Part shown: positions 313 through 48,135 of the stretch, piece after piece
How the letters are laid out: every line of letters begins with the position of its first letter
Numbering within the stretch: the stretch's first letter is position 1
NCBI GenBank assembly: GCA_016183245.1
Contig: JACPEY010000033.1
Location: forward strand, 1-52,818
Source of the DNA: Candidatus Daviesbacteria bacterium
GTDB lineage: Bacteria > Patescibacteriota > Microgenomatia > Daviesbacterales > UBA10151
Length of the DNA stretch: 52,818 nucleotides
Direction of reading: 5' to 3'
The notes under the pieces: model-generated
The model's database searches: none
Seen by the model: only the letters and a program-made list of their open reading frames with translations
Told to the model about the DNA's origin: nothing
Translations under genes and position numbers: made by a program

Positions 313-1413
313 TTAGCTTAGTCTCACCGGCATTACAATATACTCCAACCCTTCTATTCCCATTGGTTTTATTAAGGAAGCAGACAGGGAGCCGGAGAAT
401 TCCATCATTATTTGAGTAGCAGGAGAATTTGAAACAGCATCCAGCAAAAACTTGGTATTAAAAGCAATTTTTAACTCCTCGCCCTCAATTTCACCTTCAA
501 TCTCATTTTCCTGACTGCCTACCTCTTTGGTATGAGACTCCAGCTTTAAAATGCCTTTTTTGGTAGTTAAAACAACAATATTAGCTTCATTTTTGGCAAA
601 AATTGCTGCCAGCTTAATCGCTTTTAAAAGTTCATCTTTTTCCACCATAGCCCGGGAGACAATCTTTTGCGGAATGATCTTACCCCAGGCTGGAAACTGT
701 CCTTCAATTAATCTGGAGGAAACCACTGTATTTCCTAAAGTAAATACAATCTGGTTTTGATTCTCCGAAGTTGCAATATTAACTTCATCCACCTCTTCTT
801 CAGAAATCAGCCTTAATACCTCTTCAAAAGTCCTTCTGGGAATTAAACTCCTGAATTGAGCTTGGTCCTTCGGAACATCAAGACGGCGGTGGGCTAATCT
901 AAAACCATCTGTGGCCACAAAATCGAGCTTCCCGTCAGAGACCTCTGTCAGGATCCCGGTCAAAACCGGCCGGCCTTCATCAACTGCTGAAGCAAACAAT
1001 ATTTGGGAAGAAGTTAAGAATGCTTCTTTTGGAAAATTAATGCCCGGACCTGCCGATAAAGGGATTACCGGAAACTCTGAAGCAGATATTCCATTAATAG
1101 ATGCTTTTAATTTACCTGATTCTATATTTAAAACATCACCTTCTGCTACCAACCTTAGATTGTTCTGTCCTAAACCGGATACCAACTCAACCAGAGTTTT
1201 GGCAGGTACAGTAATTTCTCCCGGCGACTCTACTTCTACATTAATATGCTTAATAACTCCTACTTCCAAATTGGTAGCAGCAATTTTCAGTCTCTTTCCC
1301 TCCACCAAAAACAATACATTATCTAAAACCGGCAGGGTTGAACGGACACCTACTGACCTGGCTACAGCTTGTAAAGAAGGCAGTAAATCTTGTTGTAAAA
1401 CAGTAAATTTCAT
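313..1413 (-). CDS. dnaN: DNA polymerase III beta sliding clamp
   Basis: 366 aa with the typical N-terminus MKFTVLQQDLLPSLQAVARSV and a three-domain clamp length. It lies immediately downstream of dnaA. Confidence 0.95.
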   Translation of the reverse strand: MKFTVLQQDLLPSLQAVARSVGVRSTLPVLDNVLFLVEGKRLKIAATNLEVGVIKHINVEVESPGEITVPAKTLVELVSGLGQNNLRLVAEGDVLNIESGKLKASINGISASEFPVIPLSAGPGINFPKEAFLTSSQILFASAVDEGRPVLTGILTEVSDGKLDFVATDGFRLAHRRLDVPKDQAQFRSLIPRRTFEEVLRLISEEEVDEVNIATSENQNQIVFTLGNTVVSSRLIEGQFPAWGKIIPQKIVSRAMVEKDELLKAIKLAAIFAKNEANIVVLTTKKGILKLESHTKEVGSQENEIEGEIEGEELKIAFNTKFLLDAVSNSPATQIMMEFSGSLSASLIKPMGIEGLEYIVMPVRLS

Positions 1414-2246: not shown

Positions 2247-3572
2247 CTAAGAGCTCATTAGCTTTTGTTTGATTTCAATGAACATCCTTTGTACTTCCCT
2301 ATCCTGATTGACCAATTTTTTAATTTTATCCCTGCCGTGCATAACAGTTGTATGATCCCGTTTACCTAACAGTTGTCCTATTTTTTCCACAGTTAAATTT
2401 AATTGTTCACTTAAGATAAACATAGTAATATGCCGCGGCAAAACCAGTTCTTTTTGTCTTTTTGCTCCGGTTAAATCTTTCTGGTTTAGGTTAAAATATT
2501 CACAAACTGTTTCCAGAACTTTTTTGGGTTCAATCTTAATATTACTTTGCTGGATGGATTTAGTCTGAAGATGCTTGCCAATATTCTCCGGCGTAGGAGG
2601 CAGGTTTTGAACTTGCAGGAGTTGTAGTATTCCAACGAGTTGTCCTTCCAACTCCCTTATATTGGTTTCAAAAGAAGCAGCCAACATTTTTAAAGTTTCC
2701 TCCGGCAGGTTTGCTTTGTGCTCCAGGCATTTTGACCGCAAAATTGCAACCCTGGTATCAAAATCAGGTTGTTGGATATCAATCATCAAACCTCCGACAA
2801 ATCTGGACTTTAACCGGTCTTCCAGTTTGGGGATTTCGTGCGGAGATCTGTCTGAGGTTAAAACTATCTGGCTGTTTTTACCAATAAGCTCATTAAAAGT
2901 ATGAAAAAACTCTTCCTGGGTTCCTTCGCGGCCGGAAAAAAATTGAATATCATCAACCAGCAGTACATCTGCCAGGCGGTATTTGGCCCGCAAATCTCCC
3001 ATTTTGCGGGTTTGGATGGCTGCAACATAGTCATTCATGAATTTTTCTGAAGGAGAGTAGATAATTTTGGCATGAGGTTTTTTATCCAAAATAGCATTGC
3101 CGATGCCGAGCATCAGATGTGTTTTTCCGACACCTGTACCGCCATAGATAAATAAAGGGTTGTAAGATGTGCCGGGGTTTTGGACAATTGCCTGGGCTGC
3201 CGCATAAGCTACATTATTAGAGGGACCAACTACATAGTTTGATAAAGAATATTTGGGGTTTAAGACAGAAACTGCAGCTTGAATAGGCTGGAAAAAATCC
3301 TCTTCTTTTTCCTCTGTCTGTTTTTCTGCTTCTTTAACAATAAATTCAACCGCTACACTTTTTCCCAAAAGATTGGCAAAGCCGGTTTCTATAATAGGCA
3401 GGTATTTTTGGCTCAAAGTTTCTTTAACGAAAGCATGAGGGGTGGAAAGTACTATTTTGTCATCTGAGCAGCTTTTTAAAGAAGCTTTTAGAAACCAGGC
3501 CTTGTAATTGACAGGGCCTACTTGGGATTTGATGGTTTCTAAAAATTTGTGCCAAAGGCGTAAATTGTCCAT
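2247..3572 (-). CDS. dnaA: Chromosomal replication initiator DnaA
   Basis: Walker A GGTGVGKTHL, AAA+ core, and C-terminal DNA-binding helix region (HTTVMHGRDKI). I prefer the ATG at 3572 (MDNLRLWHKF) over the track start at 3602, because the extra 10 codons are made of two perfect DnaA boxes. Confidence 0.95.
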   Translation of the reverse strand: MDNLRLWHKFLETIKSQVGPVNYKAWFLKASLKSCSDDKIVLSTPHAFVKETLSQKYLPIIETGFANLLGKSVAVEFIVKEAEKQTEEKEEDFFQPIQAAVSVLNPKYSLSNYVVGPSNNVAYAAAQAIVQNPGTSYNPLFIYGGTGVGKTHLMLGIGNAILDKKPHAKIIYSPSEKFMNDYVAAIQTRKMGDLRAKYRLADVLLVDDIQFFSGREGTQEEFFHTFNELIGKNSQIVLTSDRSPHEIPKLEDRLKSRFVGGLMIDIQQPDFDTRVAILRSKCLEHKANLPEETLKMLAASFETNIRELEGQLVGILQLLQVQNLPPTPENIGKHLQTKSIQQSNIKIEPKKVLETVCEYFNLNQKDLTGAKRQKELVLPRHITMFILSEQLNLTVEKIGQLLGKRDHTTVMHGRDKIKKLVNQDREVQRMFIEIKQKLMSS

Positions 3573-3573
3573 T

Positions 3574-3601
3574 GTGGATAAGTCAAAATCAGTTATCCAC
3601 A
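3574..3601. promoter_or_regulatory. Pair of perfect DnaA boxes immediately upstream of dnaA
   Basis: TGTGGATAA at 3574-3582 and TTATCCACA at 3593-3601, convergently oriented. Confidence 0.7.
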
Positions 3602-3703
3602 ATTTAATTCACATTATCCCCTCTTTCAATATGGAGAAACTATAAATAAGTAGATCAAGTTTGTGTTGATTATAAAGATTATAACAGTTATAATGTTTAT
3701 ATT

Positions 3704-3841
3704 ATGCCAAAAAGAACATATCAACCCAAAAAGTTAAAAAGAATTAAAAAGCATGGCTATCGGGCCAGGGCTGCAACTTCCGGCGGACAGAAGGTTTTAA
3801 AAAGAAGAAGGGCAACAGGTAGGGCTCGCCTCGCAATTTGA
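3704..3841 (+). CDS. rpmH: 50S ribosomal protein L34
   Basis: Hand translation gives [45 protein letters not shown] (45 aa). It is absent from the ORF track because it is short. The stop overlaps the rnpA ATG (ATGA). Confidence 0.9.
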
Positions 3842-4179
3842 TGCTTTCCAAAGATAAACGCCTTAATTTAAAAACAGACTTTAAATGGGCAGCTGGTGGC
3901 AAAAAACTGGAAACAAAGTATTTAAAACTTTTTGTTAAGGTAGGAGATAATGAGTTTCCAAGGGTAGGGATAGCTGTTTCTTCTAAAGTTTTTAAAAAGG
4001 CTACAGAGCGCAACAAAGCCAGAAGAGTTGTTTCTGCAGCATTTGAATCTCTTTACTCAAGTTTGCCGTCTACTATTAATATAGTGGCTCTTCCCAAAGC
4101 AGGGGCAACTAATGTAAAATCAGGAGATATTCTTTTGGATCTGGAGGAAGGGTTAAAAGAAGCGCGAATAATACAATGA
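3838..4179 (+). CDS. rnpA: RNase P protein component
   Basis: 113 aa and basic, in the conserved rpmH-rnpA-yidD-yidC order. The start overlaps the rpmH stop. Confidence 0.85.
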
Positions 4180-4379
4180 TTATAAATTTTATGACTTTTA
4201 TAATAAATTTTTATCAAAAATATCTCTCTTTTGACAGGGGAGTTTTGGCAGTTTTTGCACCCGGCGGGGCTTGCAGGTATGAAGTAAGTTGCTCGGAATA
4301 TACTAAGCAAAAAATCAGGGAAGTTGGGGCAATGAGGGGAATTTGGTTAGGTTTGATAAGAATCTGGAGGTGCAGGTGA
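4176..4379 (+). CDS. yidD: Membrane protein insertion efficiency factor YidD
   Basis: Motif FYQKYLS...CRYEVSCSEY, ~67 aa, located between rnpA and yidC. Confidence 0.85.
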   Translation: MIINFMTFIINFYQKYLSFDRGVLAVFAPGGACRYEVSCSEYTKQKIREVGAMRGIWLGLIRIWRCR

Positions 4380-5254
4380 GCGGTATCGGCGATATATTTA
4401 ATTTAATTTTTTTCGGCCCGGTTATTAATCTGTTGGTGTTAATTTTCCAGGGATTGCAAGCGCTGCATATACCGGGAGCATTAGGTTTTGCCATATTGTT
4501 TTTGACAATTTTGATAAGGATTTTGGTCTGGCCGTTTATGGCTTCACAAATTAAAGCCACTAAAAAAATGGCGGATCTTAAGCCCCACCTGGATGCTTTG
4601 AAGAAAAAGCACAAAGGTGATAAGCAGGCTTTTGCTGCTGCACAGATGGCTCTTTATAAAGAGCACGGTGTAAATCCGGCCGGAGGCTGTTTGCCTGCCC
4701 TTATTCAAATTCCCGTTTTTATTGCTCTTTACCAGTCAATAATTCATATTTTGCCTGGAGGCAATATTAACCAGATAAATTCTTTGCTGTATTTTCCTCA
4801 GCTAAAGCTTCCATCCACCTTAGACCCGAATTTTTTCGGACTGAACTTAGGCATTAAACCATCGGAGTTTGGAAGCCAGGGATTCTTGTTGCTTTTAATT
4901 CCCCTTTTGACTGCAGGTTTAACCTTTGTGCAATCCAAGATGACTTTACCGAAACCGATTAAGCACTATCCGTCTGATTCCCCTAAAGAAGAGAAGGAGA
5001 AGGAGGGTTTGGAAGAAAGTATGGGACAGGTTCAGTCGCAGATGGTTTATCTGATGCCTATTATGATTGGTTATTTTGCTTTCTCTTTTCCGGTGGGGCT
5101 TGCAATTTATTGGAATACGTATACAATACTCGGGATAATCCAACAGCACCGGGTTTCCGGCTGGGGAGGATTGACTGACCTTACGGTCAGAATTAAAAAT
5201 TTAAAATTTAAAATTTCTAAAAAACAAAAAGACTATGGAAAATCAGTTGAGTGA
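4376..5254 (+). CDS. yidC: Membrane protein insertase YidC (short form)
   Basis: Conserved MADLKPHLDALKKKHKGDKQ...YKEHGVNPAGGCLPALIQIPVF. I prefer the GTG at 4376, which has GGAGG at 4366-4370 and a GTGA overlap with the yidD stop, over the TTG at 4343. Confidence 0.9.
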   Translation: MSGIGDIFNLIFFGPVINLLVLIFQGLQALHIPGALGFAILFLTILIRILVWPFMASQIKATKKMADLKPHLDALKKKHKGDKQAFAAAQMALYKEHGVNPAGGCLPALIQIPVFIALYQSIIHILPGGNINQINSLLYFPQLKLPSTLDPNFFGLNLGIKPSEFGSQGFLLLLIPLLTAGLTFVQSKMTLPKPIKHYPSDSPKEEKEKEGLEESMGQVQSQMVYLMPIMIGYFAFSFPVGLAIYWNTYTILGIIQQHRVSGWGGLTDLTVRIKNLKFKISKKQKDYGKSVE

Positions 5255-5724: not shown

Positions 5725-6919
5725 AGACACTCTCCTTTTTTTAACCCTACTCTTTTTGCCCACTCAACTAGGTAAACATTTTTGGCCTTCGTTCTCTTAT
5801 ATATATTCTTTAAAAATTGACTATCTGTCCCCTGTCATTTATTTTTGGGACATTCTGGCAGCAGGACTTCTGGCAGTTTGGTTTCTGCAAAAACCAAAGA
5901 TTAATAAACTTGCGCTTAACCTTTTGTTGGTGTTTTTGTTTACCCAGGCTTTGTCTTTAATTGGTGCCGGAAATATTGGAGCAGGGCTGGTAAGACTTGA
6001 GCAATATATACTGGCTGGTTTTTTTGGAGTATATCTTTCCTCCCTGGACTTTAAAAGTCTGGCGCAAAAAATTTTCCTGCCGCTTGCTTTAGGTATTTTA
6101 GGGCAAGCTCTTATAGCAATCCTGCAGTTTTTAAAGGGTTCAACTATTGGTTTTTGGTTTTTGGGCGAAAGGACTTTTAGTATTACAACACCCGGGATTG
6201 CCAAATTTGACTTTTATGGCAACCAGTTTTTAAGGCCTTATGCAACTTTTCCTCTCCCAAATGTTCTGGCAGGATATTTAGTAGTTATGGTTTATGGTTT
6301 ATGGTTTATGGTTTATAGGCAGAAACGTCTTTTAAAAGCAGTTTCAATATTAGCAGCAGTGATAATTTTTCTGACTATGTCAAGGGTGGCAATTTTGGCT
6401 GGAATGGTGGCGGTTCTGGTAATGCTGCGGCGTCAATCAATAAAGATTATAATTCTTATAACTATTATAACAATTATACTTTCCCCTATTCTTTTTATCC
6501 GATTTTCTGCTATTTTTAACTTTGACAGTTTAACACTAACAAGGCGGGAGGAGCTGATAGGAAGCGCATGGCAGATTTTTTTAAAAAAGCCTTTTTTTGG
6601 AGTGGGTTTAAATAACTTTATTCCGGTTTCAGCCGGAGATTTATTAACAGGTCCCAGCCGTTTTCTGCAGCCGGTCCATAATATTTTATTACTGGAACTG
6701 GCTGAGACAGGAATAATTGGCTTGATGGGATTATTGGGTCTCATCGGATACCCGGTATTAAAAAGATCAAAATTCAAAATTCAAAATTCAAAATTATTGT
6801 GGGTTATAATTCTTTTTCTGGGGATGTTTGATCACTATTTTTTAACTTTGCCTCAGGGTTACCGGCTGCTGTTTTTAATCTGGGGATTATCTTTTAGTTC
6901 TTCTGCAAAAACTGCTTAA
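5702..6919 (+). CDS. O-antigen ligase/polymerase-like (Wzy_C-type) polytopic membrane protein
   Basis: Many TM helices plus typical segments MSRVAILAGMVAVLV and PVHNILLLELAETGIIGL. The start is placed at the ATG at 5702, since upstream codons overlap jag. Confidence 0.7.
   Translation: MLKIKKAEDTLLFLTLLFLPTQLGKHFWPSFSYIYSLKIDYLSPVIYFWDILAAGLLAVWFLQKPKINKLALNLLLVFLFTQALSLIGAGNIGAGLVRLEQYILAGFFGVYLSSLDFKSLAQKIFLPLALGILGQALIAILQFLKGSTIGFWFLGERTFSITTPGIAKFDFYGNQFLRPYATFPLPNVLAGYLVVMVYGLWFMVYRQKRLLKAVSILAAVIIFLTMSRVAILAGMVAVLVMLRRQSIKIIILITIITIILSPILFIRFSAIFNFDSLTLTRREELIGSAWQIFLKKPFFGVGLNNFIPVSAGDLLTGPSRFLQPVHNILLLELAETGIIGLMGLLGLIGYPVLKRSKFKIQNSKLLWVIILFLGMFDHYFLTLPQGYRLLFLIWGLSFSSSAKTA
6767..6794. 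repeat. Heptanucleotide tandem repeat (TCAAAAT)x4 inside a CDS
   Basis: Four perfect 7-nt units, translated as KFKIQNSK near the C-terminal part of the O-antigen-ligase-like protein. Confidence 0.9.
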
Positions 6920-9305: not shown

Positions 9306-10568
9306 ATGCAAAGTTTAATTAAAATTTCCCAGCAAACTATTTGGCAGGTTTTGGGGAAAGCGGTTACTTCCCTGTCTACCTTTATTATATTAGGGCTGGT
9401 TGCAAGAAATTACGGCCCCAACGGAACAGGTATTTTTACTCTGGCACTTACATACCTTGCGATATTTTACCTTCTGGCGGATTTTGGATTTAATGCCCAC
9501 GAACTAAAAAGAGTCAAGAGACTAGAGTCAAGAGATAAGGAATGGAATAAATTGTTGGGGACAAGGGTGGTTTGGTCTGGCATTTTGATTATTTTGGCAA
9601 TAGGGCTATTACCTTTCTGGCCTTTTGCTACAGCGCAGTTTAACACAGCAGTTTTTATAGGAAGTTTGGCAATTGCGGCTTCAGCAATATTTATAACCTG
9701 TAATTTAATTTTTCAAAGTAAATTAAGATATGACTTGTCTGTAATTGCTTCTAGTATTGGCACCTTAGTTGGGTTGGTAATTACAGTTTGGTTAATAAGT
9801 TCCCGCTTCCCTGTTTCCCAGATTATCCTGGGTCATTTAATAGGATGGGTATTCATAGCAGCCAGCGCGCTCATTTTATGCGGAAGATTGCTTCGTTCCT
9901 TCGCTCCTCGCAATGACAAACAAGAAAAGTTTCCCAGTTGCATTGGGAAACCAATTATTGATTTATCATATGCCGCTAACTTGTTTAAGCAGTCTTGGCC
10001 AATTGCTGCAACATTGTCTTTAAATGTTTTATATTTTCGGGCAGATTCTTTTTTAATAGCTTATTTTAAATCCGTCTCAGATGCAGGAATTTATAATGTA
10101 GCTTATTCTTTTTTTCAAACTGCTTTGGTTTTGCCGACCTTTATTATGAATGCTTATTATCCTTTAATGTTAAAATCTTTAGCTAAAGTAAAAGTGATGG
10201 GACTTAGTTTACTGGGGATATCCTTGCTCGGGACCGTCCTTACTTTAACTGCTGCGCCTTTAATCATTAAGATTTTGACTGGTGGTGGTTTTGCCGGTTC
10301 AACTTTGTCTTTGCAGATTTTATCTTTAGGTTTTCCGGCTTATTTTTTATCATCGCTTTTAATGTGGATTTTTGTGGCTAAAAATAAGTATAAAACCTTG
10401 TTTTTGCTTTACACGTCCGGGACGATTTTCAACATCTTATTAAATATTTTCTATATTCCAAAATATTCTTATATAGCTTCATCATGGATTACCGTGATTT
10501 CAGAATATTTTATTTTGATTTTGCAGATTATGGTATTATGGTTTGCAGAAAGCAGGTTCAAGAGATGA
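9306..10568 (+). CDS. MOP-superfamily polysaccharide/lipid-linked oligosaccharide flippase (Wzx/MurJ-like)
   Basis: 420 aa with ~12-14 TM helices and the typical N-terminus (QQTIWQVLGKAVTSLSTFIILGLVAR). Carries in-frame repeat fragments at 9511-9535 and 9884-9917. Confidence 0.7.
   Translation: MQSLIKISQQTIWQVLGKAVTSLSTFIILGLVARNYGPNGTGIFTLALTYLAIFYLLADFGFNAHELKRVKRLESRDKEWNKLLGTRVVWSGILIILAIGLLPFWPFATAQFNTAVFIGSLAIAASAIFITCNLIFQSKLRYDLSVIASSIGTLVGLVITVWLISSRFPVSQIILGHLIGWVFIAASALILCGRLLRSFAPRNDKQEKFPSCIGKPIIDLSYAANLFKQSWPIAATLSLNVLYFRADSFLIAYFKSVSDAGIYNVAYSFFQTALVLPTFIMNAYYPLMLKSLAKVKVMGLSLLGISLLGTVLTLTAAPLIIKILTGGGFAGSTLSLQILSLGFPAYFLSSLLMWIFVAKNKYKTLFLLYTSGTIFNILLNIFYIPKYSYIASSWITVISEYFILILQIMVLWFAESRFKR
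9884..9917. repeat. Half copy (right arm) of the GTCATTGCGAG-type palindromic repeat inside the flippase CDS
   Basis: AGATTGCTTCGTTCCTTCGCTCCTCGCAATGAC matches the right arm of the copy at 47445-47522. Translated as LLRSFAPRND. Confidence 0.7.
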
Positions 10569-10975
10569 AGATTGTTATTTACACAGATGGCGCCTCGCGT
10601 GGTAATCCGGGTCAGGCCAGTTTCGGTTTTACAATTGCTGATGAAAACGGAAAATTGCTTTATGAGAAGGGTCAATGCATTGGGGTTGCTACTAATAATG
10701 TAGCAGAATATACCGCAGTGCTGGAAGCGTTTAAAAAAGCGCGCGAGATGTTTTCAGGAAAAGTTGTACATATTGAGCTTTTTGCAGATTCTAAACTAGT
10801 GGCAGAACAATTATCAGGGCGGTATAAAATAAAAAGCCCTCATCTTAAGCCGATTATTGAAGAGATTAAGATTTTAGCAGTGGAGCTGGGTGGAGTAGTA
10901 TACACACATATACCTAGGTCAAAAAATACCGCAGCAGACAGACTGGCTAATTTAGCGCTTGATAATAGAGACTAG
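10565..10975 (+). CDS. rnhA: Ribonuclease HI
   Basis: IYTDGASRGNPGQASFG, NNVAEYTA, ADSKLV and NTAADRLAN motifs. The ATG at 10565 overlaps the flippase stop (ATGA). Confidence 0.9.
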   Translation: MKIVIYTDGASRGNPGQASFGFTIADENGKLLYEKGQCIGVATNNVAEYTAVLEAFKKAREMFSGKVVHIELFADSKLVAEQLSGRYKIKSPHLKPIIEEIKILAVELGGVVYTHIPRSKNTAADRLANLALDNRD

Positions 10976-11063
10976 ACTTTTGACTCTAGTCACCTGCCAC
11001 TTGTTACTTTCCGATATCTTTTCATCCTCTTGATTTTATATTATAGAGTGTTACGATTTACCC

Positions 11064-16458: not shown

Positions 16459-18777
16459 TCAAGTGTTTATATTATTAGGCCACTTAGTAACCATAATAGT
16501 TTTGCCTTCATGGGGCAGTTTTTGCCATAATTCTTCAGTTATAAACGGCATGAATGGGTGCAAAAGCTCCAAAGATGTCCTGAATACGTATTCTAAAACC
16601 GGCTGGGCTTGGGCCCGCCTGTCTTTTGTTGATTCAATATATTTGTCTGCAAATTCATGCCAGATAAATTCATATAAAGCATCTGATCCGTCATGAAATC
16701 TATAAGAATCCAAGGCTTTGGTGACTGTTTTAATGGTTTGGGAAAGTTTTTCCAGAATTTGTTTGTCATCCTCATTTTTTCCTGTCATTCTGGCGAACGT
16801 AGTGAGTCCAGAATCTGTGTGATTCGTTGATTCTGGAGTCGTCGCGGAGTTTACCCCGTACTTTGATACGGGGTCCCTCCCCAGAATGACAGCAGTGGGA
16901 TTTAAATGTTTAGCATCTTCCGGGGCAAAGTCGATAATAAAACGGCCAATGTTCCACAATTTATTGGTAAAATTTCTCATGGCTTGCAGTTTAGGATGGG
17001 ACAACGCCTGATCGTGACCAAAAGCATTGCCATACATTAAAGCCATCCTTAAAGCATCTGCTCCGTAAAGGTTGGCAATTTCAATCGGGTCAACCACATT
17101 GCCTTTGCTTTTGCTCATCTTTTTACCAAGCGGGTCCAAGACTTTGCCATGCAGGAGAATATCTTTGAAGGGGATTTTGCCGGTGATGTAAATTCCCAGC
17201 ATGACCATCCGGGCTACCCAGAAGAGCAAAATATCATAGCCGGTTTCCATCACAGATGTCGGATAAAACTTATCAAAATCTTCCGGTTTGGTGGATTGCA
17301 GGGTAGCAAAGGGCCACTGGCCGGAAGAAAACCACGTATCAAATACATCCGGATCTTGTTCCAGTTGAGCAGAGCCACAATCTGGACATTTTTCAGGTTT
17401 TTCGCCTTCAGTCACAATCCAGATTGTATTATTTAGTTTTGAACTTTTAGTTGTAGTTTTGACTTTTGACTTTTGACTTTTGACCTCGCTGCATTTTATG
17501 CAGCGCCAGGCCGGAATCTGCATCCCCCAGACAATTTGCCGGGAAATATTCCAGTCTTTTAAATTCTCCAGCCAATTAAAGTAAGTAGTTTCCCAATTTT
17601 TAGGGACAATTTTTATGGTTCGACTTCGCTCACCATTAACCGCTTCAATGGCAGTTTTTGCTAGCCCGTCCATTTTTAGAAACCATTGTTCCAAAGGCAG
17701 CGGTTCAATTTCTGTACCGCATTTATAACAAACCCCCACCCTGTTTTTGTAATTTTCATCCATTTTTTCAATTAAGCCCTTCTCTTGCATCTCTACGGCA
17801 ATGGCTTTTCTGGCTTCCTTTACTCTCATGCCAGCAAACTTGCCGGCTTTTTCATTTAAACGGCCGTCAAAACCAATTACCTGGCGGATCTCCAGGTTAT
17901 GCCGCTGTCCTATTTCAAAATCTATTGGAGCATGGGCAGGGGTAACTTTAATGACTCCTGTTCCAAAGTTGGGGTCAACAGCTTTGTCTGCAATTACTTT
18001 AATTTTGGCCGGGCCTAACACTGTTTCAATACTTAAGGTTTCTCCTATATATTTTTGATAACGTTTATCATCAGGATGAACTGCCACGGCAGTATCACCG
18101 AATTTGGTTTCCAGTCTAACTGTAGCCAGTGTTAACGGCCCGTATTTAATGTAGTAAAGCGGGGTAGTCCGGTCCTCATATATAACTTCCAGATCAGAAA
18201 ATGAGGTGCCATGTCTGGTGCAGTAATTAACTAACCTCAGTCCCCGGTAAGCCAGGCCGTCATTAAATAATTTCTTGAAAGTTTTATAAACTACTTTGAC
18301 AATATCCGGGTCAAGGGTAAATTTTTCCCGCGACCAGTCAACAGAAAAGCCTAATTTACGAAGCTGTCCTTCCATGGTGCCTTTATTGGCCTGGACAAAA
18401 TCCCAAATCATTTTATATAAAGTTTCCCGGTCAAAGTCAAAACGGGACTTACCTGTCTTTTCCAAGTGTTTTTCAAATACTACTTGAGTTTCAAAGCCGG
18501 CATGGTCTGAACCCGGCAGCCATAAAGCAGCCTCACCTTTCATCCTATGATACCTGATTAAAATGTCCTCAACAGTATATAAGGCGTGGCCAAAATGCAA
18601 AGGGGCATTGGCATTTGGCGGGGGTAGGATAATGGTGTAAGGCTTGCCTTCAGGGTTTATCTCAGGTTGAAAATAGCCTGCTTTTTCCCAAATGTCATAC
18701 CACTTTGGTTCAACTTTAGTCTGGTCGTATACTTTCTCCATGGAGTAAGTATAGTGTTTTGGAAGGGGGAAGGTCAA
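16459..18777 (-). CDS. valS: Valyl-tRNA synthetase (short form, no long C-terminal coiled coil)
   Basis: PPPNANAPLHFGHAL (HIGH-type), KMSKSKGN, an editing-domain-length insert, and DKYIE in the anticodon-binding region. Carries two in-frame repeat insertions. Confidence 0.95.
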   Translation of the reverse strand: MTFPLPKHYTYSMEKVYDQTKVEPKWYDIWEKAGYFQPEINPEGKPYTIILPPPNANAPLHFGHALYTVEDILIRYHRMKGEAALWLPGSDHAGFETQVVFEKHLEKTGKSRFDFDRETLYKMIWDFVQANKGTMEGQLRKLGFSVDWSREKFTLDPDIVKVVYKTFKKLFNDGLAYRGLRLVNYCTRHGTSFSDLEVIYEDRTTPLYYIKYGPLTLATVRLETKFGDTAVAVHPDDKRYQKYIGETLSIETVLGPAKIKVIADKAVDPNFGTGVIKVTPAHAPIDFEIGQRHNLEIRQVIGFDGRLNEKAGKFAGMRVKEARKAIAVEMQEKGLIEKMDENYKNRVGVCYKCGTEIEPLPLEQWFLKMDGLAKTAIEAVNGERSRTIKIVPKNWETTYFNWLENLKDWNISRQIVWGMQIPAWRCIKCSEVKSQKSKVKTTTKSSKLNNTIWIVTEGEKPEKCPDCGSAQLEQDPDVFDTWFSSGQWPFATLQSTKPEDFDKFYPTSVMETGYDILLFWVARMVMLGIYITGKIPFKDILLHGKVLDPLGKKMSKSKGNVVDPIEIANLYGADALRMALMYGNAFGHDQALSHPKLQAMRNFTNKLWNIGRFIIDFAPEDAKHLNPTAVILGRDPVSKYGVNSATTPESTNHTDSGLTTFARMTGKNEDDKQILEKLSQTIKTVTKALDSYRFHDGSDALYEFIWHEFADKYIESTKDRRAQAQPVLEYVFRTSLELLHPFMPFITEELWQKLPHEGKTIMVTKWPNNINT
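16784..16890. repeat. MITE-like palindromic repeat inserted in frame in valS
   Basis: GTCATTCTGGCGAACGTAGTGAGTCCAGAATCTG...CCCCAGAATGAC. The left arm nearly matches 2149-2230. Translated as ILGRDPVSKYGVNSATTPESTNHTDSGLTTFARMT. Confidence 0.85.
17437..17484. repeat. Heptanucleotide tandem repeat block (GACTTTT x3 plus degenerate units) inside valS
   Basis: Perfect units at 17461-17481. Translated on the minus strand as KSQKSKVKTTTKSSKL. Confidence 0.85.
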
Positions 18778-18786
18778 TTGTAACTA

Positions 18787-19965
18787 TTACTGGACTAGAG
18801 ACAGGTTGGGGTTGGCCTGGAGGGTTAAGGGGTCTATAGGGTGGTAGTTATAAAAGGCAGTGGAGGCAATCATGGCAGCATTATCAGTGCAAAGCTTGGA
18901 AGCAGGTACATGTAATCTAATTTTGAATTTTGAACTTTGAATTTTGAATTTCAAATCAGAAACCAGTTTCTGATTTGACGCTACTCCTCCTGCAATCATA
19001 ATTTGATCAACTTTATACCTTTGGGCTGCTCTGACAGTTTTTTCAACAAGAACATCTACAATAGCAGCTTCTATAGAAGCTGCTAAGTTATTAGTGATTA
19101 GTTTGTAGTTTGTAGAATTTTTGTCTTTACTACCAACTACCAACTCTGAACTCTGAACTAAATTAGCAACTGCAGTTTTTAAGCCTGAAAAGGAAAAATC
19201 CCATCCATAGGTTGGTCGTCCTCTGGACGAAAAATCTTTCATCATTGGCCTGGGGAGATTAAAAGCATTAGGATTACCAGACTTGGCTAACTTAGCGAGA
19301 TTGGGGCCGCCCGGGTATGGAAGCCCAAGAAGTCTGGCGCATTTGTCAAAACACTCTCCTGCTGCATCATCCCGGGTTCCCCCTAGGTATTCATACTTGC
19401 CATGGTCTCCAAATAAAACTAAATCAGTATGTCCGCCGGAAACAAGCAGGCCAATGCAGGGGAATTTAGGTAAGTGACTAGTCGCTAGAGTCGAGAGACT
19501 AGACTTTTCTTTTTTATTCCTTGACTCTTGACTCTGGACTCTTGACTCTTCCCATATCCAGTTTGCATAAAAATGGCCGAGCAGGTGATTAACCGGTATA
19601 AGAGGTTTACCCCAAACTAAAGCCAGAGTTTTGGCTGTTTCTATTCCTACTAAAAGCGAGCCGATTAGTCCTGGTCCCTGCGTGACTGCAATAGCATCTA
19701 AACTTTGTTTACCCTGAGCGAGCGAAGCGAGTCGAAGGGCCTCTTCAATTACGGGAATAATGGATTTAATTTGTTCTCTGGCAGCTTGTTCCGGAATCAC
19801 GCCGCCGTATTTAGCTTGTAAATCAGCTGACGATGCCACAATATTGGATAAAATTATTACCCCTTTGTCTACCAAAGGCTTGTCGTAGGCGGATATTTCC
19901 ACTACAGCAGCTGCCGTTTCATCACAACTGGTTTCAATTCCTAGAATAACTTTTGGTCGTGTCAT
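18787..19965 (-). CDS. tsaD: tRNA N6-adenosine threonylcarbamoyltransferase
   Basis: ILGIETSCDETAAAVV, GPGLIGSLLVG, LLVSGGHT and IAGGVASN. At 392 aa it is lengthened by three repeat-derived inserts. Confidence 0.95.
   Translation of the reverse strand: MTRPKVILGIETSCDETAAAVVEISAYDKPLVDKGVIILSNIVASSADLQAKYGGVIPEQAAREQIKSIIPVIEEALRLASLAQGKQSLDAIAVTQGPGLIGSLLVGIETAKTLALVWGKPLIPVNHLLGHFYANWIWEESRVQSQESRNKKEKSSLSTLATSHLPKFPCIGLLVSGGHTDLVLFGDHGKYEYLGGTRDDAAGECFDKCARLLGLPYPGGPNLAKLAKSGNPNAFNLPRPMMKDFSSRGRPTYGWDFSFSGLKTAVANLVQSSELVVGSKDKNSTNYKLITNNLAASIEAAIVDVLVEKTVRAAQRYKVDQIMIAGGVASNQKLVSDLKFKIQSSKFKIRLHVPASKLCTDNAAMIASTAFYNYHPIDPLTLQANPNLSLVQ
18921..18948. repeat. Heptanucleotide tandem repeat (TTTTGAA)x4 inside tsaD
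   Basis: Four units, one with a single substitution. In the sense orientation this is the same TTCAAAA unit as 6767-6794. Translated as FKIQSSKFKI. Confidence 0.9.
19088..19160. repeat. Period-7 repeat block forming an imperfect inverted repeat inside tsaD
   Basis: TTAGTGATTAGTTTGTAGTTTGTAG ... CTACCAACTACCAACTCTGAACTCTGAACTAA. Translated as SSELVVGSKDKNSTNYKLITNN. Confidence 0.8.
19474..19550. repeat. Repeat block inside tsaD ending in (GACTCTT)x4
   Basis: GACTAGTCGCTAGAGTCGAGAGACTAGAC ... with heptamer units at 19523-19550. Translated as EESRVQSQESRNKKEKSSLSTLATSH. Confidence 0.85.
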
Positions 19966-20363
19966 GAGGATATTTTAACAGAAATGCCTTTGAGCCATTT
20001 GGAGATTTGGTCGATGGTTAAGTTGCCGTTGTCTACTCTGATTGCAAACTCAACTTCTTTCTGGTGGCTGTTGATTAATCGGTAACCGTTTTTCCGTAGA
20101 AATAAACCAGCAGAAGTTAAGGCTGTTCTTTTATTTCCATCTACAAAAGGGTGGTTTTTTAGTAAAGATTGCAGCAGGGCAGCTGCTTTATCAAAAATGG
20201 AGATGTAAAGAAATTTACCTCCAAAAGTAGCTTGAGGTCTTGCTACTGCCGATTCCACCAGCCCTATATCCCTGATTCCGTGGGAACCACCAAATCTTTT
20301 TACCATCTGATTGTGGATAAAAAGGACTTGATTGATATTCAAAAATACAATTTGTTTAGTCAC
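19962..20363 (-). CDS. doc: Doc (death-on-curing) Fic-fold toxin
   Basis: HPFVDGNKRTALTS motif, 133 aa. The stop overlaps the tsaD start. Confidence 0.85.
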   Translation of the reverse strand: MTKQIVFLNINQVLFIHNQMVKRFGGSHGIRDIGLVESAVARPQATFGGKFLYISIFDKAAALLQSLLKNHPFVDGNKRTALTSAGLFLRKNGYRLINSHQKEVEFAIRVDNGNLTIDQISKWLKGISVKISS

Positions 20364-20596
20364 TTGCGGGAAAGTTCTTGGAGCACATCTTCATGTTCGT
20401 TCATAAATTCATCCACCATTTTAGCAAATTTTAAATCTATCCCGCTTGCCTTTATTTTCTTTTGTGGCATTAGAGTCAAGCCAGCGTCTGTTTTTCTCCA
20501 TTCCACTTCTGAACCTGCCCTGATAGACAACTGGTGAGCATACGTTTTGGGAACTGTGACAGCCAAAGAATTACCGTTTCTAAAGACTTTTCTCAT
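20360..20596 (-). CDS. AbrB/MazE-fold (SpoVT-type) antitoxin partnered with Doc
   Basis: MRKVFRNGNSLAVTVPK is the swapped-hairpin signature. 4-nt overlap with doc. Confidence 0.8.
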   Translation of the reverse strand: MRKVFRNGNSLAVTVPKTYAHQLSIRAGSEVEWRKTDAGLTLMPQKKIKASGIDLKFAKMVDEFMNEHEDVLQELSRK

Positions 20597-46764: not shown

Positions 46765-47721
46765 ATGGAAAAAGCGATTTTAAAAACACTAATTTATGCA
46801 GATATTTTTGATTACCCCTTAAAGATAAATGAAATACATAAATGGTTGATTGGGAAAAAAGTAACACTCAGGCAGTTGGAGAAAGCGCTGGGGAAGTTAG
46901 TGGGTAGGTTACAGGTCTTCGACTCCGAGGTCGCTCAGACTCGAGGAGTTGCAGCCTGCAGAAGATTTTATTATTTGCCAAAAAGAAAAAAACTGATTAG
47001 TAAAAGGTTGGAAAAAGCCAGGCAGTCTGAGGTCTATTTAAAAAAGGCCAGAATGCTTGCCCAGGTTTTGAAAGTAATCCCTTGGATTAAATTGGTTGGG
47101 ATTTCAGGGGGCTTGGCTTTAAATAATGCCGGCAAATATGATGACATTGACCTTTTTATTGTTACTGCCAAAAACCGTTTGTGGGTTTCAAGACTGCTGG
47201 CTTTAGGACTACTGTCTTTAACAGGACAAAGAAGAAAGGCAGGAGAAAGCGGGAAAAAAGTTGCCGGGAAAATATGCGCTAATATTTTAGTGGAAGAGGA
47301 TAAACTGGAGCAGAAAAATAAAGATATATATACTGCCCATGAAGTTTTACAAATGAAAGTTTTGTGGCAGCGGAATGGGATTTATTCTAAATACTTATAT
47401 GATAATGAGTGGGTTTTTAAGTTTTTGCCAAACTGGGTGGATTCGTCATTGCGAGCCCCGAAGGGGCGTGGCAATCTAGTACCGCAGAAGATTGCTTCGT
47501 CGCATTCGCTCCTCGCAATGACGTGGATGGAGGGTCTTGCTAAATGGTTTCAGCTGAAAATAATGCAGAAACAAAAAGGGATGGAGCGGATAGAAGACGG
47601 GGCCCTTTATTTCCATCCTCAGGATTGCCGCCTGGGAGTTTTATCAGAATATAAAAAGAAATTATCTAGATTTTTTGACTCTTGGCTCTCGCGACTAGTC
47701 ACTGACTTAATCAGTCCTTGA
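46765..47721 (+). CDS. Hypothetical protein with a Pol-beta-type nucleotidyltransferase-like motif
   Basis: GISGGLALNNAGKYDDIDLFIVT resembles the G-S...D-x-D NTase signature. Carries in-frame repeat insertions at ~46911-46955 and 47445-47522. Confidence 0.5.
   Translation: MEKAILKTLIYADIFDYPLKINEIHKWLIGKKVTLRQLEKALGKLVGRLQVFDSEVAQTRGVAACRRFYYLPKRKKLISKRLEKARQSEVYLKKARMLAQVLKVIPWIKLVGISGGLALNNAGKYDDIDLFIVTAKNRLWVSRLLALGLLSLTGQRRKAGESGKKVAGKICANILVEEDKLEQKNKDIYTAHEVLQMKVLWQRNGIYSKYLYDNEWVFKFLPNWVDSSLRAPKGRGNLVPQKIASSHSLLAMTWMEGLAKWFQLKIMQKQKGMERIEDGALYFHPQDCRLGVLSEYKKKLSRFFDSWLSRLVTDLISP
47445..47522. repeat. MITE-like palindromic repeat inserted in frame (78 nt = 26 codons)
   Basis: GTCATTGCGAGCCCCGAAGGGGCGTGGCAATCT...AGATTGCTTCGTCGCATTCGCTCCTCGCAATGAC. 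Translated as SLRAPKGRGNLVPQKIASSHSLLAMT. Confidence 0.85.
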
Positions 47722-47808: not shown

Positions 47809-48135
47809 ATGCCAAAAGCTAGAAAAGAGTCAAGAATCAAGAATCAAGAATCAATAAAGCCCCTAATGGGTTATGTGTTGGTACAGCCTTCTGAAGCAGA
47901 AACTAGAACTGCCTCCGGTATAATTTTGCCGGAATCTGCCCAGGAAAAACCAGCCCAGGGAAAAGTGGTAGCTTGTGGTGATGAGATGGTTATGGAAAAT
48001 GGAAAGTCTGTGAAGTGTCCGGTTAAAGTGGGAGATAAAGTAGTTTACAAAAAATGGGGCGGGGATGAAATAAAAGTTGACGGCCGGGAGTTGAAATTAG
48101 TAAAGTTTGATGATTTGATGGCAATATTGGAGTGA
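47809..48135 (+). CDS. groES: Co-chaperonin GroES with a repeat-derived N-terminal extension
   Basis: IKPLMGYVLVQP...TASGIILPE...GKVVACG...VGDKVVYKKWGG. The conserved core is preceded by MPKARKESRIKNQES, encoded by the heptamer repeats. Confidence 0.9.
   Translation: MPKARKESRIKNQESIKPLMGYVLVQPSEAETRTASGIILPESAQEKPAQGKVVACGDEMVMENGKSVKCPVKVGDKVVYKKWGGDEIKVDGRELKLVKFDDLMAILE
47830..47854. repeat. Heptanucleotide tandem repeat (TCAAGAA)x3.5 inside the groES 5' end
   Basis: Perfect units at 47830-47850 plus a partial unit. Confidence 0.9.

What the first reader, a model, noticed from the sequence alone, without database searches (positions are those of the whole stretch)
18921..19550. Three separate period-7 repeat blocks are embedded in frame in the essential tsaD gene
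tsaD carries three blocks. The first is (TTTTGAA)x4 at 18921-18948. The second is a period-7 block forming an imperfect inverted repeat at 19088-19160 (TTAGTGA TTAGTTT GTAGTTT ... ACTACCA ACTACCA ACTCTGA ACTCTGA). The third is a block ending in (GACTCTT)x4 at 19523-19550. All are translated into hydrophilic K/S/Q/E-rich loops (FKIQSSKFKI, SSELVVGSKDKNSTNYKLITNN, EESRVQSQESRNKKEKSSLSTLATSH), lengthening TsaD to 392 aa. A 7-nt unit is not a multiple of three, so gain or loss of one unit by slipped-strand mispairing would frameshift an essential gene. Their persistence is therefore puzzling.
Basis: partly seen in the sequence, partly recalled or inferred. Interest (0 to 1): 0.65.

Follow-up and report, generated by a model that had tools for sequence, protein, structure and literature searches.

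The report
Heptamer repeat elements inside CPR tsaD
The three 7-base repeat blocks in this essential tRNA-modification gene are real, translated copies of a class of small repeats found throughout this group of ultra-small groundwater bacteria (Microgenomates/CPR), and they persist because only copies that keep the reading frame, avoid stop codons and sit at tolerant sites can survive.

Summary
All three period-7 blocks are confirmed at the stated coordinates. They are identical in contigs from five groundwater metagenome runs, so they are not an assembly artefact. They are not peculiar to tsaD. Period-7 arrays are the only enriched tandem-repeat class in the window (8 against 0.2 expected). 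Around tsaD they are about 15 times denser in CPR bacteria than in other bacteria. TsaD of this clade has four recurrent repeat sites. Block 3 is a 78-nt element: four heptamers, an A-rich loop, then four inverted heptamers. Its 19-nt core recurs in about two dozen other low-GC loci, mostly 1-8 nt upstream of start codons (dnaK, rpsC, rpsQ, rplN). In tsaD it lies in a disordered loop, is open in only one of six frames, and is far better conserved at nucleotide level than the rest of the gene. Block 2 has the same architecture in another loop. Block 1 is not an insertion. It is a resident array in native helix and strand, and its 7-nt periodicity is kept in nine species while the unit sequence changes. 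The frameshift puzzle is largely explained by short arrays and purifying selection. What generates and homogenises the arrays remains unknown. New variant of a known kind; interest about 0.6.

The parts
18787..19965 (-). tsaD coding sequence (392 aa), intact, carrying repeat-derived segments at four sites (A-D)
   Evidence: ORF. Pfam TsaD 2.7e-84. PDB TsaD matches at 1e-63 to 1e-65. All invariant residues of 29 homologues are present.
18919..18951 (-). Block 1 / site D: (TTCAAAA) x4.7 on the coding strand, encoding DLKFKIQSSKFKI. A resident array in native helix/turn/strand, not an insertion.
   Evidence: TRF. Structure model: H332-344 and E350-352, pLDDT 83-93. Segment length is 24 aa in 87 of 121 homologues. 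Lag-7 identity is 0.70 in 9 species against 0.22 in a control region.
18951..18978 (-). Perfect 13-bp hairpin TCAAATCAGAAAC/GTTTCTGATTTGA over codons SNQKLVSDL, directly 5' of block 1 on the mRNA
   Evidence: Fold: -13 kcal/mol, z = -3.0. Hairpins at the same codons but with different sequence in L001, L017, L081 and L082.
19086..19159 (-). Block 2 / site C: 4x7 nt, a 13-nt A-rich (coding) spacer, then 4x7 nt inverted. Encodes QSSELVVGSKDKNSTNYKLITNN in a loop between helices.
   Evidence: Sequence and TRF. Fold: -15.5 kcal/mol, z = -2.5. Loop between H260-271 and H285-316. About +11 aa relative to solved TsaD structures.
19474..19551 (-). Block 3 / site B: a 78-nt composite element. Left arm (GAGTCAA)x4, A-rich loop, right arm TCTAGTC TCTCGAC TCTAGCGAC TAGTCAC. 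Encodes EESRVQSQESRNKKEKSSLSTLATSH in a disordered loop.
   Evidence: pLDDT below 50 at residues 144-162. Orthologous copies in L081, L082, L113 and L114, and an empty site in L112. Dispersed copies of its core in L084-L110. Open in only 1 of 6 frames.
19712..19739 (-). Site A: CCCTGAGCGAGCGAAGCGAGTCGAAGGG (LRLASLAQGK), a further repeat inside tsaD that is very abundant in the community
   Evidence: Contig depth 7,700-9,500 against about 84 for the flanks. Site A length is variable among homologues.
47667..47702 (+). Second copy of the block 3 right arm (TCTAGATTTTTTGACTCTTGGCTCTCGCGACTAGTCAC) at the 3' end of ORF 46765..47721, upstream of groES
47825..47854 (+). (GAGTCAA)(GAATCAA)x3 array lying within the groES ORF as called from ATG 47809, where it would encode KESRIKNQES as an N-terminal extension. 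The start codon is not confirmed.
17457..17484 (-). (GTCAAAA)x4 in frame in valS (VKSQKSKVK), within a 10-12 aa insertion relative to orthologues
9509..9539 (+). GAGTCAA-type array in frame in the flippase (Polysacc_synt) gene. The orthologous site in L081 carries (GGTTACA)x4, and L082 has none.
6285..6316 (+). (TTATGGT)x4.6 in frame in the Wzy-like gene. The same gene also carries arrays at 6147-6164 and 6767-6795 ((TCAAAAT)x4, KFKIQNSK).
5191..5216 (+). (AATTTAA) array in frame near the C-terminus of yidC (RIKNLKFKISKK)
10973..10995 (+). Short right-arm-like motif TAGACTT TTGACTC TAGTCAC at the stop codon of the RNase H gene (an intergenic copy)

Best explanation
The three blocks are in-frame, translated instances of a repeat class typical of Microgenomates and other CPR bacteria. 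The class consists of arrays of about four tandem heptanucleotides, often arranged as two inverted 4x7-nt arms around an 11-15-nt A-rich spacer.

Block 3 is a copy of a dispersed element. Its usual place is the short spacer between co-directional genes, ending 1-8 nt before the next start codon. Block 2 has the same architecture built from other units. Block 1 is a resident array within native coding sequence.

Inside genes, such repeats are seen only where three conditions hold:
1. The net length change is a multiple of three.
2. The orientation and frame are free of stop codons. A heptamer array is read in all three frames, and the composite element is open in only 1 of 6 frames.
3. The site tolerates extra or arbitrary residues. 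In TsaD these are the four sites A-D.

Slippage by one or two units would frameshift an essential gene and is purged, and with four units slippage should be rare. The arrays are therefore fixed in unit number. Their unit sequences still turn over and are homogenised within each array (concerted evolution). The likely routes are intra-array or hairpin-templated conversion, or re-copying from other genomic copies.

Shown: reality of the blocks, lineage-wide enrichment, recurrent sites, dispersal of the block 3 core, the frame and stop constraint, nucleotide-level conservation, and retained periodicity. Inferred: how copies arise (transposition or recombination versus local slippage) and how they are homogenised.
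For: - The blocks are real and identical in 5 runs.
- Only period 7 is enriched: 8 arrays against 0.2 in the window, 26 against 0-1 for periods 5-12 in 46 tsaD genes, and 40 against 0-6 in 285 kb.
- Density per 100 kb around tsaD is 28.9 in Microgenomates-like loci, 16.2 in other CPR loci and 1.9 in non-CPR loci.
- The arrays fall at four recurrent TsaD sites.
- Block 3 lies in a disordered loop, block 2 in an inter-helix loop and block 1 in native fold.
- The 19-nt core of block 3 is found in 28 metagenome stretches. In 19 occurrences it ends 1-8 nt before the ATG of a long ORF (dnaK, rpsC, rpsQ, rplN and others). It occurs in frame in two other proteins, read in the same frame as ..STLATSH...
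- Five species carry the element at the same TsaD codon position, always with exactly 4 left-arm units but different units. These include a perfect (GGGTCAA)x4 against (GAGTCAA)x4. A close relative has an empty site.
- Co-occurring relatives carry 16-23 nt in place of 83-91 nt, giving differences of 72, 72 and 60 nt, all multiples of 3.
- The composite element is open in 1 of 6 frames. 22 of 27 units are stop-free on the coding strand, but only 4 of 27 on the reverse strand.
- The same 4x7 + A-rich + 4x7 architecture, with unrelated units, occurs at sites B and C of L001.
- At site D, lag-7 identity is 0.70 in 9 species against 0.22 in a control region, while between-species identity is 0.58.
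- The flippase orthologues show +7 aa = (GGTTACA)x4 at one site.
Against: - No target-site duplication, terminal inverted repeat pair or transposase was found, and the empty and filled sites share no nucleotide footprint. Mobility is therefore inferred from distribution only.
- The right arm of block 3 is 92% identical (36/39 nt; third codon positions 10/13 to 13/13) between species whose tsaD is otherwise 68% identical, with 42-44% at third positions. A neutral passenger inherited vertically should have decayed. This points either to recent spread or to selection on the nucleotide sequence.
- Intergenic copies at orthologous positions (dnaK, rpsC) in different species also suggest function rather than pure parasitism.
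- Unit-number variation could be examined only in assembled contigs, which hide rare variants.
- The neighbour-joining tree used for the patchy-distribution argument is weak.
Confidence: 0.65

Rival explanations
1. The elements are functional nucleic-acid signals kept by selection even inside tsaD. The right arm, ending in the near-palindrome TAGCGACTAGTCACTA, together with the 4x7 arrays, would be a binding site for a dimeric DNA-binding protein or for a protein that reads 7-nt registers. Alternatively it would be an RNA stem-loop controlling processing, stability or translation start. The intragenic copies would be maintained for that role, and the peptide would be a by-product.
For: - The right arm is conserved at nucleotide level, with third positions at 77-100% against 43% elsewhere.
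- The position of intergenic copies is fixed at 1-8 nt before start codons of highly expressed genes, and is repeated at dnaK and rpsC in different species.
- Exactly four units per arm are also found where no reading frame constrains the number.
- Hairpins at sites C and D are kept with changes on both arms.
- Heptamer repeats directly upstream of start codons are known elsewhere and were proposed to act in translation. CspB binds one protein per heptamer (PMC4679880).
Against: - Many close relatives lack the element in tsaD or carry unrelated inserts at the same site, so it is dispensable there.
- The left arm varies freely, so pairing with the constant right arm is not strictly kept. Fold z-scores are modest, from -0.5 to -3.3.
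- No Rfam family matches.
- No partner protein was identified, and no RNA data are available.
- Changes on both arms of a hairpin can arise from templated mutation without any selection.
Confidence: 0.2
2. The blocks arose purely by local slippage. Each array would have arisen in situ from a resident heptamer, through a replication-polymerase property that favours 7-nt misalignment, with no dispersed or mobile element involved.
For: - Excess of heptanucleotide SSRs is reported for many prokaryotes, with a polymerase-slippage proposal (Mrazek et al. 2007, as summarised in PMC4679880 and PMC4692102).
- Units differ widely between species at the same site.
- Block 1 is not an insertion.
- The flippase orthologue shows +21 nt = one unit becoming four.
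Against: - The same 19-nt core and right arm of block 3 occur at more than 20 unrelated low-GC loci and in several proteins. Local slippage cannot produce this.
- Slippage does not explain the inverted second arm or the A-rich spacer.
- Single-unit steps are lethal in frame, so stepwise growth inside tsaD is not available.
- No arrays longer than about 6 units were seen.
Confidence: 0.1
3. tsaD is a contingency (phase-variable) locus. The heptamer tracts would switch tsaD on and off by frameshifting.
For: The unit length is not a multiple of three. Heptanucleotide tracts do drive phase variation in Haemophilus hmwA promoters (PMC8262952).
Against: - There are only about 4 units, against 13-24 in the known case.
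- No unit-number variants appear in contigs of five runs.
- The unit number is identical in five species.
- The targets are housekeeping genes (tsaD, valS, yidC and the groES ORF as called), not surface or restriction genes.
Confidence: 0.02
4. The blocks are an assembly or annotation artefact, or tsaD is a decaying pseudogene.
For: Repeats often break assemblies, and unitigs do end inside the blocks.
Against: - Overlapping unitigs from five runs in two studies agree with the window base for base.
- The ORF is intact and all invariant residues are present.
- The model is confident outside the inserts: pLDDT 81, pTM 0.83.
- Orthologous inserts occur in independent assemblies.
Confidence: 0.01

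Closest known systems
Rickettsia-specific palindromic elements (RPE) and other MITE-like repeats with open frames (Correia/NEMIS 107 bp, ERIC, YPAL)
   Same: A dispersed small palindromic repeat found both between genes and fused in frame into conserved protein genes. The insert is tolerated at permissive sites, and filled and empty sites occur among relatives (PMC2229807).
   Different: - The element is 75-78 nt, against 105-168 bp.
- Its arms are built from four tandem heptanucleotides, and the unit sequence differs between species and sites.
- No terminal inverted repeats, target duplication or transposase were found.
- The host is a CPR bacterium.
- The same architecture recurs with unrelated sequences, so the class is defined by form rather than by a consensus sequence.
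Over-represented heptanucleotide simple sequence repeats of prokaryotes (Mrazek et al. 2007; GGGNATC repeats of Xanthomonas/Nostoc, Rehm et al. 2015)
   Same: Tandem 7-nt units are the dominant long-unit repeat class, dispersed over the genome and with a preference for about four units (PMC4692102).
   Different: Those repeats are mainly intergenic and under-represented in coding regions, and their four-unit preference was ascribed to G-quadruplexes. Here most arrays lie inside genes, including housekeeping genes. They are A/T-rich without G-tracts, and they sit at orthologous codon positions across species.
TAACTGA heptamer direct repeats upstream of start codons in Beggiatoaceae, cyanobacteria and Bacteroidetes (MacGregor 2015)
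   Same: [quoted passage not shown] Orientation within genes is limited by the stops. Distribution across lineages is patchy (PMC4679880).
   Different: The unit differs (TWGACTC/GAGTCWA and many others). An inverted second arm and a conserved terminal palindrome are present. Frequent in-frame intragenic copies occur. The phylum is different.
Coding palindromes in Nematomorpha mitochondrial genes
   Same: Perfect inverted repeats overlie conserved protein-coding sequence, as at the ANQKLV(S/R) hairpin next to block 1 (PMC6649704).
   Different: The arms here are much shorter (9-13 bp against up to 284 bp). The system is bacterial and is associated with heptamer arrays.
Cyanobacterial STRR heptanucleotide repeats and small dispersed repeats nested in them (Mazel 1990; Elhai 2008)
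   Same: From memory, not tested here: tandem heptamers of several sequences are dispersed in the genome, and small palindromic elements are found inserted within heptamer arrays. Compare the 21-nt GC-rich palindrome splitting the site D array of L082.
   Different: Those are reported mainly in non-coding DNA of heterocystous cyanobacteria. I could not retrieve these papers in the library.

Membership tests
RPE/MITE-like coding palindromic repeats | Multi-copy dispersed family with a conserved sequence | tested here: met
   For block 3: its 19-nt core occurs in 28 metagenome stretches, about 24 of them in low-GC CPR-like contigs, with several copies per contig. There are two copies plus one partial copy in the window. 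Not shown for blocks 1 and 2 beyond the depth spikes.
RPE/MITE-like coding palindromic repeats | Transcript or strand folds into a long stem-loop | tested here: inconclusive
   Imperfect stems: -21.7, -15.5 and -13.0 kcal/mol, z = -2.0, -2.5 and -3.0 for blocks 3, 2 and 1. Related copies give z from -0.5 to -3.3.
RPE/MITE-like coding palindromic repeats | In-frame fusion into conserved protein genes at tolerated positions | tested here: met
   Also in frame in two unrelated ORFs, L092 and L109.
RPE/MITE-like coding palindromic repeats | Terminal inverted repeats with target-site duplication, and mobilisation by a transposase | tested here: not met
   Comparison of the filled sites (win, L081, L082, L113, L114) with the empty site (L112) shows no duplication or footprint. 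No transposase was found among the 22 window ORFs scanned.
Phase-variable (contingency) simple sequence repeats | Long tract whose unit number varies within populations | tested here: not met
   About 4 units. No +/-7 variants in contigs of five runs. Four units in all five species. Caveat: contigs hide rare variants.
Phase-variable (contingency) simple sequence repeats | Located in or upstream of surface, virulence or restriction-modification genes | tested here: not met
   The hosts are tsaD, valS, yidC, the groES ORF as called, a flippase gene and a Wzy-like gene.
Prokaryotic heptanucleotide long-unit SSRs | Head-to-tail copies of a 7-nt unit, over-represented relative to other unit lengths | tested here: met
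Prokaryotic heptanucleotide long-unit SSRs | Predominantly non-coding location, with units that are not multiples of 3 avoided in genes | tested here: not met
   28 of 40 arrays lie wholly inside long ORFs, 7 lie at ORF edges and 5 are intergenic.
Heptamer direct repeats upstream of start codons (TAACTGA type) | Array immediately 5' of translational start codons | tested here: met
   Met for the intergenic relatives of block 3: 19 occurrences end 1-8 nt before an ATG. It does not apply to the three tsaD blocks themselves.
Heptamer direct repeats upstream of start codons (TAACTGA type) | Unit sequence TAACTGA | tested here: not met
   The units are TWGACTC/GAGTCWA, TTCAAAA, AGTTNNN and others.
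GANTC (CcrM/HinfI-type) methylation-site repeats such as Caulobacter CIR | Genome-wide bias of GANTC linked to a methyltransferase | tested here: not met
   GANTC occurs 151 times against 155 +/- 12 expected.

The most novel reading that the evidence does not exclude
CPR bacteria may possess an active process, or a protein, that recognises form rather than sequence. It would write and homogenise arrays of four heptanucleotides, usually as two inverted arms around an A-rich spacer. The stop-rich strand of these elements would serve as intercistronic punctuation placed just before start codons. The same process would continually re-create the periodicity at fixed codon positions inside essential genes. 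TsaD, ValRS and others would then carry nucleic-acid signals that are conserved independently of the protein they encode.
Probability: 0.2. Interest if true: 0.85.

Novelty: new variant of a known kind. Interest (0 to 1): 0.6.

Why it matters
The excess of 7-nt tandem repeats in prokaryotes has been known since 2007 and has no accepted cause. These CPR genomes put such arrays at orthologous codon positions of universally conserved genes. The reading frame forbids stepwise length change there, and the protein alignment gives an exact register across species. This makes array birth, homogenisation and loss directly measurable. It also separates three things that are usually confounded: mutation bias, selection on the protein, and selection on the nucleic acid.

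The finding also shows that many 'lineage-specific insertions' in CPR proteins are translated repeat elements. This matters for annotation, for phylogenetic alignments of marker genes and for structure prediction in this large, uncultivated group. I found no paper in the searchable library that links Patescibacteria or Microgenomates with heptamer repeats.

Tried and rejected
- **GANTC methylation or restriction link.** The units GAGTC and GAATC contain the site, but GANTC is at its expected frequency, 151 against 155 +/- 12. Rejected.
- **'One native unit plus three added units' as the reason for about 4 copies.** It fits the flippase of L081, which is +7 aa. It does not fit Wzy (+6 aa) or ValRS (+10-12 aa). 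Intergenic arms also have about 4 units with no frame constraint. Kept only as a partial idea.
- **Promoter reading of TTGACT...TAGTCACTA.** By eye, no acceptable -10 box at a proper spacing was found. Not pursued with the scan tool.
- **Rfam.** No family matches anywhere in the window.
- **RNA evidence.** No RNA run holds the stretch.
- **Read-level copy-number variation.** Only Logan contigs were available. None shows +/-7 nt in the window strain.
- **Literature.** Searches for CPR plus heptamer or palindromic coding inserts found nothing relevant. The Elhai 2008 and Mazel 1990 cyanobacterial papers were not retrievable.
- **DNA-uptake-sequence idea for GCGACTAGTCAC.** Considered and set aside. 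The window holds only 2-3 copies in 53 kb, and the idea does not explain the fixed position before start codons.
- **Splicing or translational bypass of the inserts.** Judged unlikely, because the inserts are always multiples of three and stop-free in frame. This could not be tested directly. The sample is also biased, because only intact ORFs were retrieved.
Full report
**1. Observation**

The ORF at 18787..19965 on the minus strand encodes a 392-aa protein. It matches Pfam TsaD (E = 2.7e-84) and solved TsaD structures at about 1e-64.

Tandem Repeats Finder reports period-7 arrays at 18919-18951 (4.7 copies), 19099-19115, 19129-19145, 19142-19159 (2.4-2.6 copies each) and 19520-19550 (4.4 copies).

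Reading the coding strand gives the following.
- Block 1 is (TTCAAAA)n, encoding DLKFKIQSSKFKI.
- Block 2 is AGTTCAG AGTTCAG AGTTGGT AGTTGGT, a 13-nt A-rich spacer, then ACAAACT ACAAACT AATCACT AATAACT.
- Block 3 is GAGTCAA GAGTCCA GAGTCAA GAGTCAA, a 15-nt A-rich loop, then TCTAGTC TCTCGAC TCTAGCGAC TAGTCAC.

The window holds 8 period-7 arrays, against a mean of 0.2 (maximum 2) in Markov simulations. Neighbouring periods give 0-2.

Contigs from five groundwater metagenome runs in two studies reproduce the gene, including all blocks, with no differences.

**2. Where the blocks lie in the protein**

I aligned the protein with solved TsaD structures and with 120 homologues. I also built an AlphaFold model (pLDDT 81, pTM 0.83).
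- Block 3 (residues 138-165) is a roughly 24-aa insertion forming a disordered loop. It lies just after the helix that carries the conserved HxxxH residues (H127 and H131).
- Block 2 is an insertion of about 11 aa in the loop between helices 260-271 and 285-316.
- Block 1 lies in a native helix, turn and strand with high confidence. That segment has the modal length (24 aa in 87 of 121 homologues).

**3. It is not specific to tsaD**

In the window, similar arrays of about four units are in frame in several other genes:
- valS: (GTCAAAA)x4.
- The groES ORF as called: (GAATCAA)n.
- yidC.
- A Wzy-like gene, with three arrays.
- A flippase gene.

Several units share the core RANTCAA.

Contig depth rises 20-40-fold over blocks 1 and 3 at 90% likeness, and up to about 80-fold at 80% likeness. 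The flanks of those extra contigs are heterogeneous. The same arrays therefore occur in very many other contexts in the community.

**4. It is lineage-wide**

The organism is a CPR bacterium of the Microgenomates group, near Candidatus Daviesbacteria.
- In 46 tsaD genes, arrays of at least 3 copies number 26 for period 7 and 0-1 for periods 5, 6 and 8-12.
- Around tsaD, the density per 100 kb is 28.9 in Microgenomates-like loci, 16.2 in other CPR loci and 1.9 in non-CPR loci.
- In 285 kb of related sequence there are 40 period-7 arrays. Of these, 28 lie wholly within long ORFs, 7 at ORF edges and 5 between genes. None exceeds 43 nt.

The TsaD arrays fall at four recurrent sites: A (residues about 75-90), B (139-165), C (269-290) and D (335-350).

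**5. Block 3 is a copy of a dispersed element**

Orthologous inserts at exactly the same codon position occur in at least four other species. A further three homologues carry the same peptide. The closest relative of one carrier has an empty site (TGGATTTCTCATCCACCA...). Co-occurring relatives in the same samples have 16-23 unrelated nucleotides in place of 83-91 nt. The differences are 72, 72 and 60 nt.

A scan for the 19-nt core GNCTCTNGCGACTAGTCAC returned 28 stretches, and about 24 are from low-GC, CPR-like contigs. There the motif is the end of a degenerate 4x7 array, TTGACTC TAGACTC TAGCGAC TAGTCAC. It is often preceded by a loop and a left arm made of GAGTCTA, GAGTCAA or GAATCTA units.

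In 19 occurrences the motif ends 1-8 nt before the ATG of a long ORF. By their N-termini these ORFs are dnaK, rpsC, rpsQ, rplN, a Lon-like protease, an AdoHcy hydrolase and small membrane proteins. The stop codon of the upstream gene usually lies within or just before the arm.

Two further copies are in frame in unrelated proteins and are read in the same frame (..STLATSH..). This is forced, because the composite element is open in only one of six frames. The window has a second right-arm copy at 47667-47702 and a short one at 10973-10995.

**6. Evolutionary behaviour**

Between the window, L081 and L082, tsaD outside the insert is 68% identical in nucleotides and 42-44% at third codon positions. 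The 39 nt of the right arm are 85-92% identical, with 10-13 of 13 third positions conserved. This is the best-conserved stretch of the gene against L081 and ties for best against L082, although it encodes a disordered loop.

The left arm always has exactly four units, but the unit differs by species:
- (GAGTCAA)x4 with one mismatch in the window.
- A perfect (GGGTCAA)x4 in L082.
- Alternating GAATCTA/GAGTCAA in L113.
- GAATCAA/GAGTCAT in L114.

The same substitution in all four units indicates homogenisation or re-creation of the array.

At site D, nine species keep a lag-7 identity of 0.70, against 0.22 in a control region of the same genes. Aligned positions between species are only 58% identical. 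Unit sequences range from AAATTCA to AATGTAC and CAGGTTA.

L001 has the same 4x7 + A-rich spacer + 4x7 design at sites B and C with unrelated units. Sites C and D also carry short perfect hairpins whose sequences differ between species, with changes on both arms. The recurring feature is thus an architecture, not a consensus sequence.

**7. Why they persist**

An array of three or more heptamers is read in all three frames, so its unit must be stop-free cyclically.
- 22 of 27 units seen in genes are stop-free on the coding strand.
- Only 4 of 27 would be stop-free in the reverse orientation, against a random expectation of 57%.

Net length differences are multiples of three wherever they could be measured. 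The arrays have about four units, whereas the documented phase-variable heptanucleotide tracts of Haemophilus hmwA have 13-24. No unit-number variant appears in contigs of the window strain.

The simplest reading has two parts. First, the arrays arise or land everywhere, but in genes only frame-preserving, stop-free copies at permissive sites are seen. Second, any one- or two-unit slip in an essential gene is eliminated, so the unit number is fixed while the sequence drifts and is homogenised.

**8. What remains open**

No target duplication, terminal repeat pair or transposase was found. Mobility is therefore inferred from distribution alone.

Three observations fit a nucleic-acid function at least as well as pure parasitism. 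I give that rival 0.2.
- The right arm is conserved at nucleotide level and ends in the near-palindrome TAGCGACTAGTCACTA.
- Intergenic copies sit at a fixed position before start codons.
- Four units per arm are found even without a frame constraint.

Pure local slippage, the polymerase idea attributed to Mrazek et al. 2007 in PMC4679880, may explain block 1. It cannot explain the dispersed core of block 3 or the inverted arms.

GANTC bias, Rfam families and RNA data gave nothing.

**9. Comparison with known systems and novelty**

The closest known systems are these.
- Rickettsia palindromic elements and other MITE-like repeats fused in frame to conserved genes (PMC2229807).
- The over-represented heptanucleotide SSRs of prokaryotes, with their preference for four units (PMC4692102).
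- TAACTGA heptamer repeats directly upstream of start codons (PMC4679880).
- Coding palindromes of Nematomorpha mitochondria (PMC6649704).

The present case combines features of all of them but matches none fully. It is shorter than RPEs and lacks their ends. It is mostly intragenic, unlike the known heptamer SSRs. Its units differ from TAACTGA. No paper in the searchable library connects CPR bacteria with heptamer repeats.

I rate it a new variant of a known kind, with interest 0.6.

Noticed in passing
window 19712-19739 (inside tsaD, site A): CCCTGAGCGAGCGAAGCGAGTCGAAGGG, translated LRLASLAQGK, has about 100-fold contig depth in the metagenomes.
   Followed up: partly
window 46765..47721 (+), about 9890-9925 (+) in ORF 9306..10568, and valS near 16.7 kb: Peptides of the 'IASS..LLAMT / APRNDK / FARMT' kind lie in frame in three genes. 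Examples are SSLRAPKGRGNLVPQKIASSHSLLAMTW and LRSFAPRNDKQEKF. They look like translated copies of another palindromic repeat family. The same family also fills TsaD site B in many relatives.
   Followed up: no
L084-L110 (metagenome loci), for example L088:2821-2839, L093:1309-1327, L107:6754-6772: The motif TTGACTC TAGACTC TAGCGAC TAGTCAC ends 1-8 nt before the ATG of dnaK, rpsC, rpsQ, rplN and other genes, leaving no room for a Shine-Dalgarno sequence. It carries stop codons in all three frames, and its last 16 nt form a near-perfect palindrome.
   Followed up: partly
window 19962..20363 (-) and 20360..20596 (-): A Doc/Fic-family toxin gene and a MazE-type antitoxin gene lie directly upstream of tsaD. 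The toxin stop overlaps the tsaD start by 4 nt.
   Followed up: no
window 313..1413, 2247..3602, 3603-4342, 4343..5254: dnaN, dnaA, an AT-rich spacer with short tandem repeats (3668-3701, 4196-4221) and yidC. This is probably the chromosomal origin region.
   Followed up: no
L082:10001-11164 (tsaD site D): The heptamer array at site D is split by a 21-nt GC-rich palindrome, CCTGCCTGCCGGCGAGGCAGG (7 aa). Several other homologues (P0024, P0032, P0051, P0100) also have small inserts inside this array. This looks like nested insertion into heptamer arrays.
   Followed up: no
window 47809-47860: As called from ATG 47809, groES begins MPKARKESRIKNQESIKPL, so the heptamer array would encode an N-terminal extension ahead of the conserved IKPL. 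No other standard start codon was noticed by eye upstream of IKPL, and no Shine-Dalgarno sequence is evident. The true start is uncertain.
   Followed up: no
L003, L004, L009, L010, L018, L079: Genome bins labelled 'uncultured Gammaproteobacteria (binchicken)' carry tsaD genes 48-56% identical to this CPR gene. Three of them (L003, L009, L079) also carry heptamer arrays, and L003 carries a CPR-type palindromic insert. The taxonomic labels are probably wrong.
   Followed up: no
L081:9294-10496 and window 9306..10568: At the same loop of the flippase, one species has (GGTTACA)x4 (+7 aa), the window has a GAGTCAA-type array, and a third species (L082) has neither. This is a second gene with an orthologous array hot spot.
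   Followed up: partly
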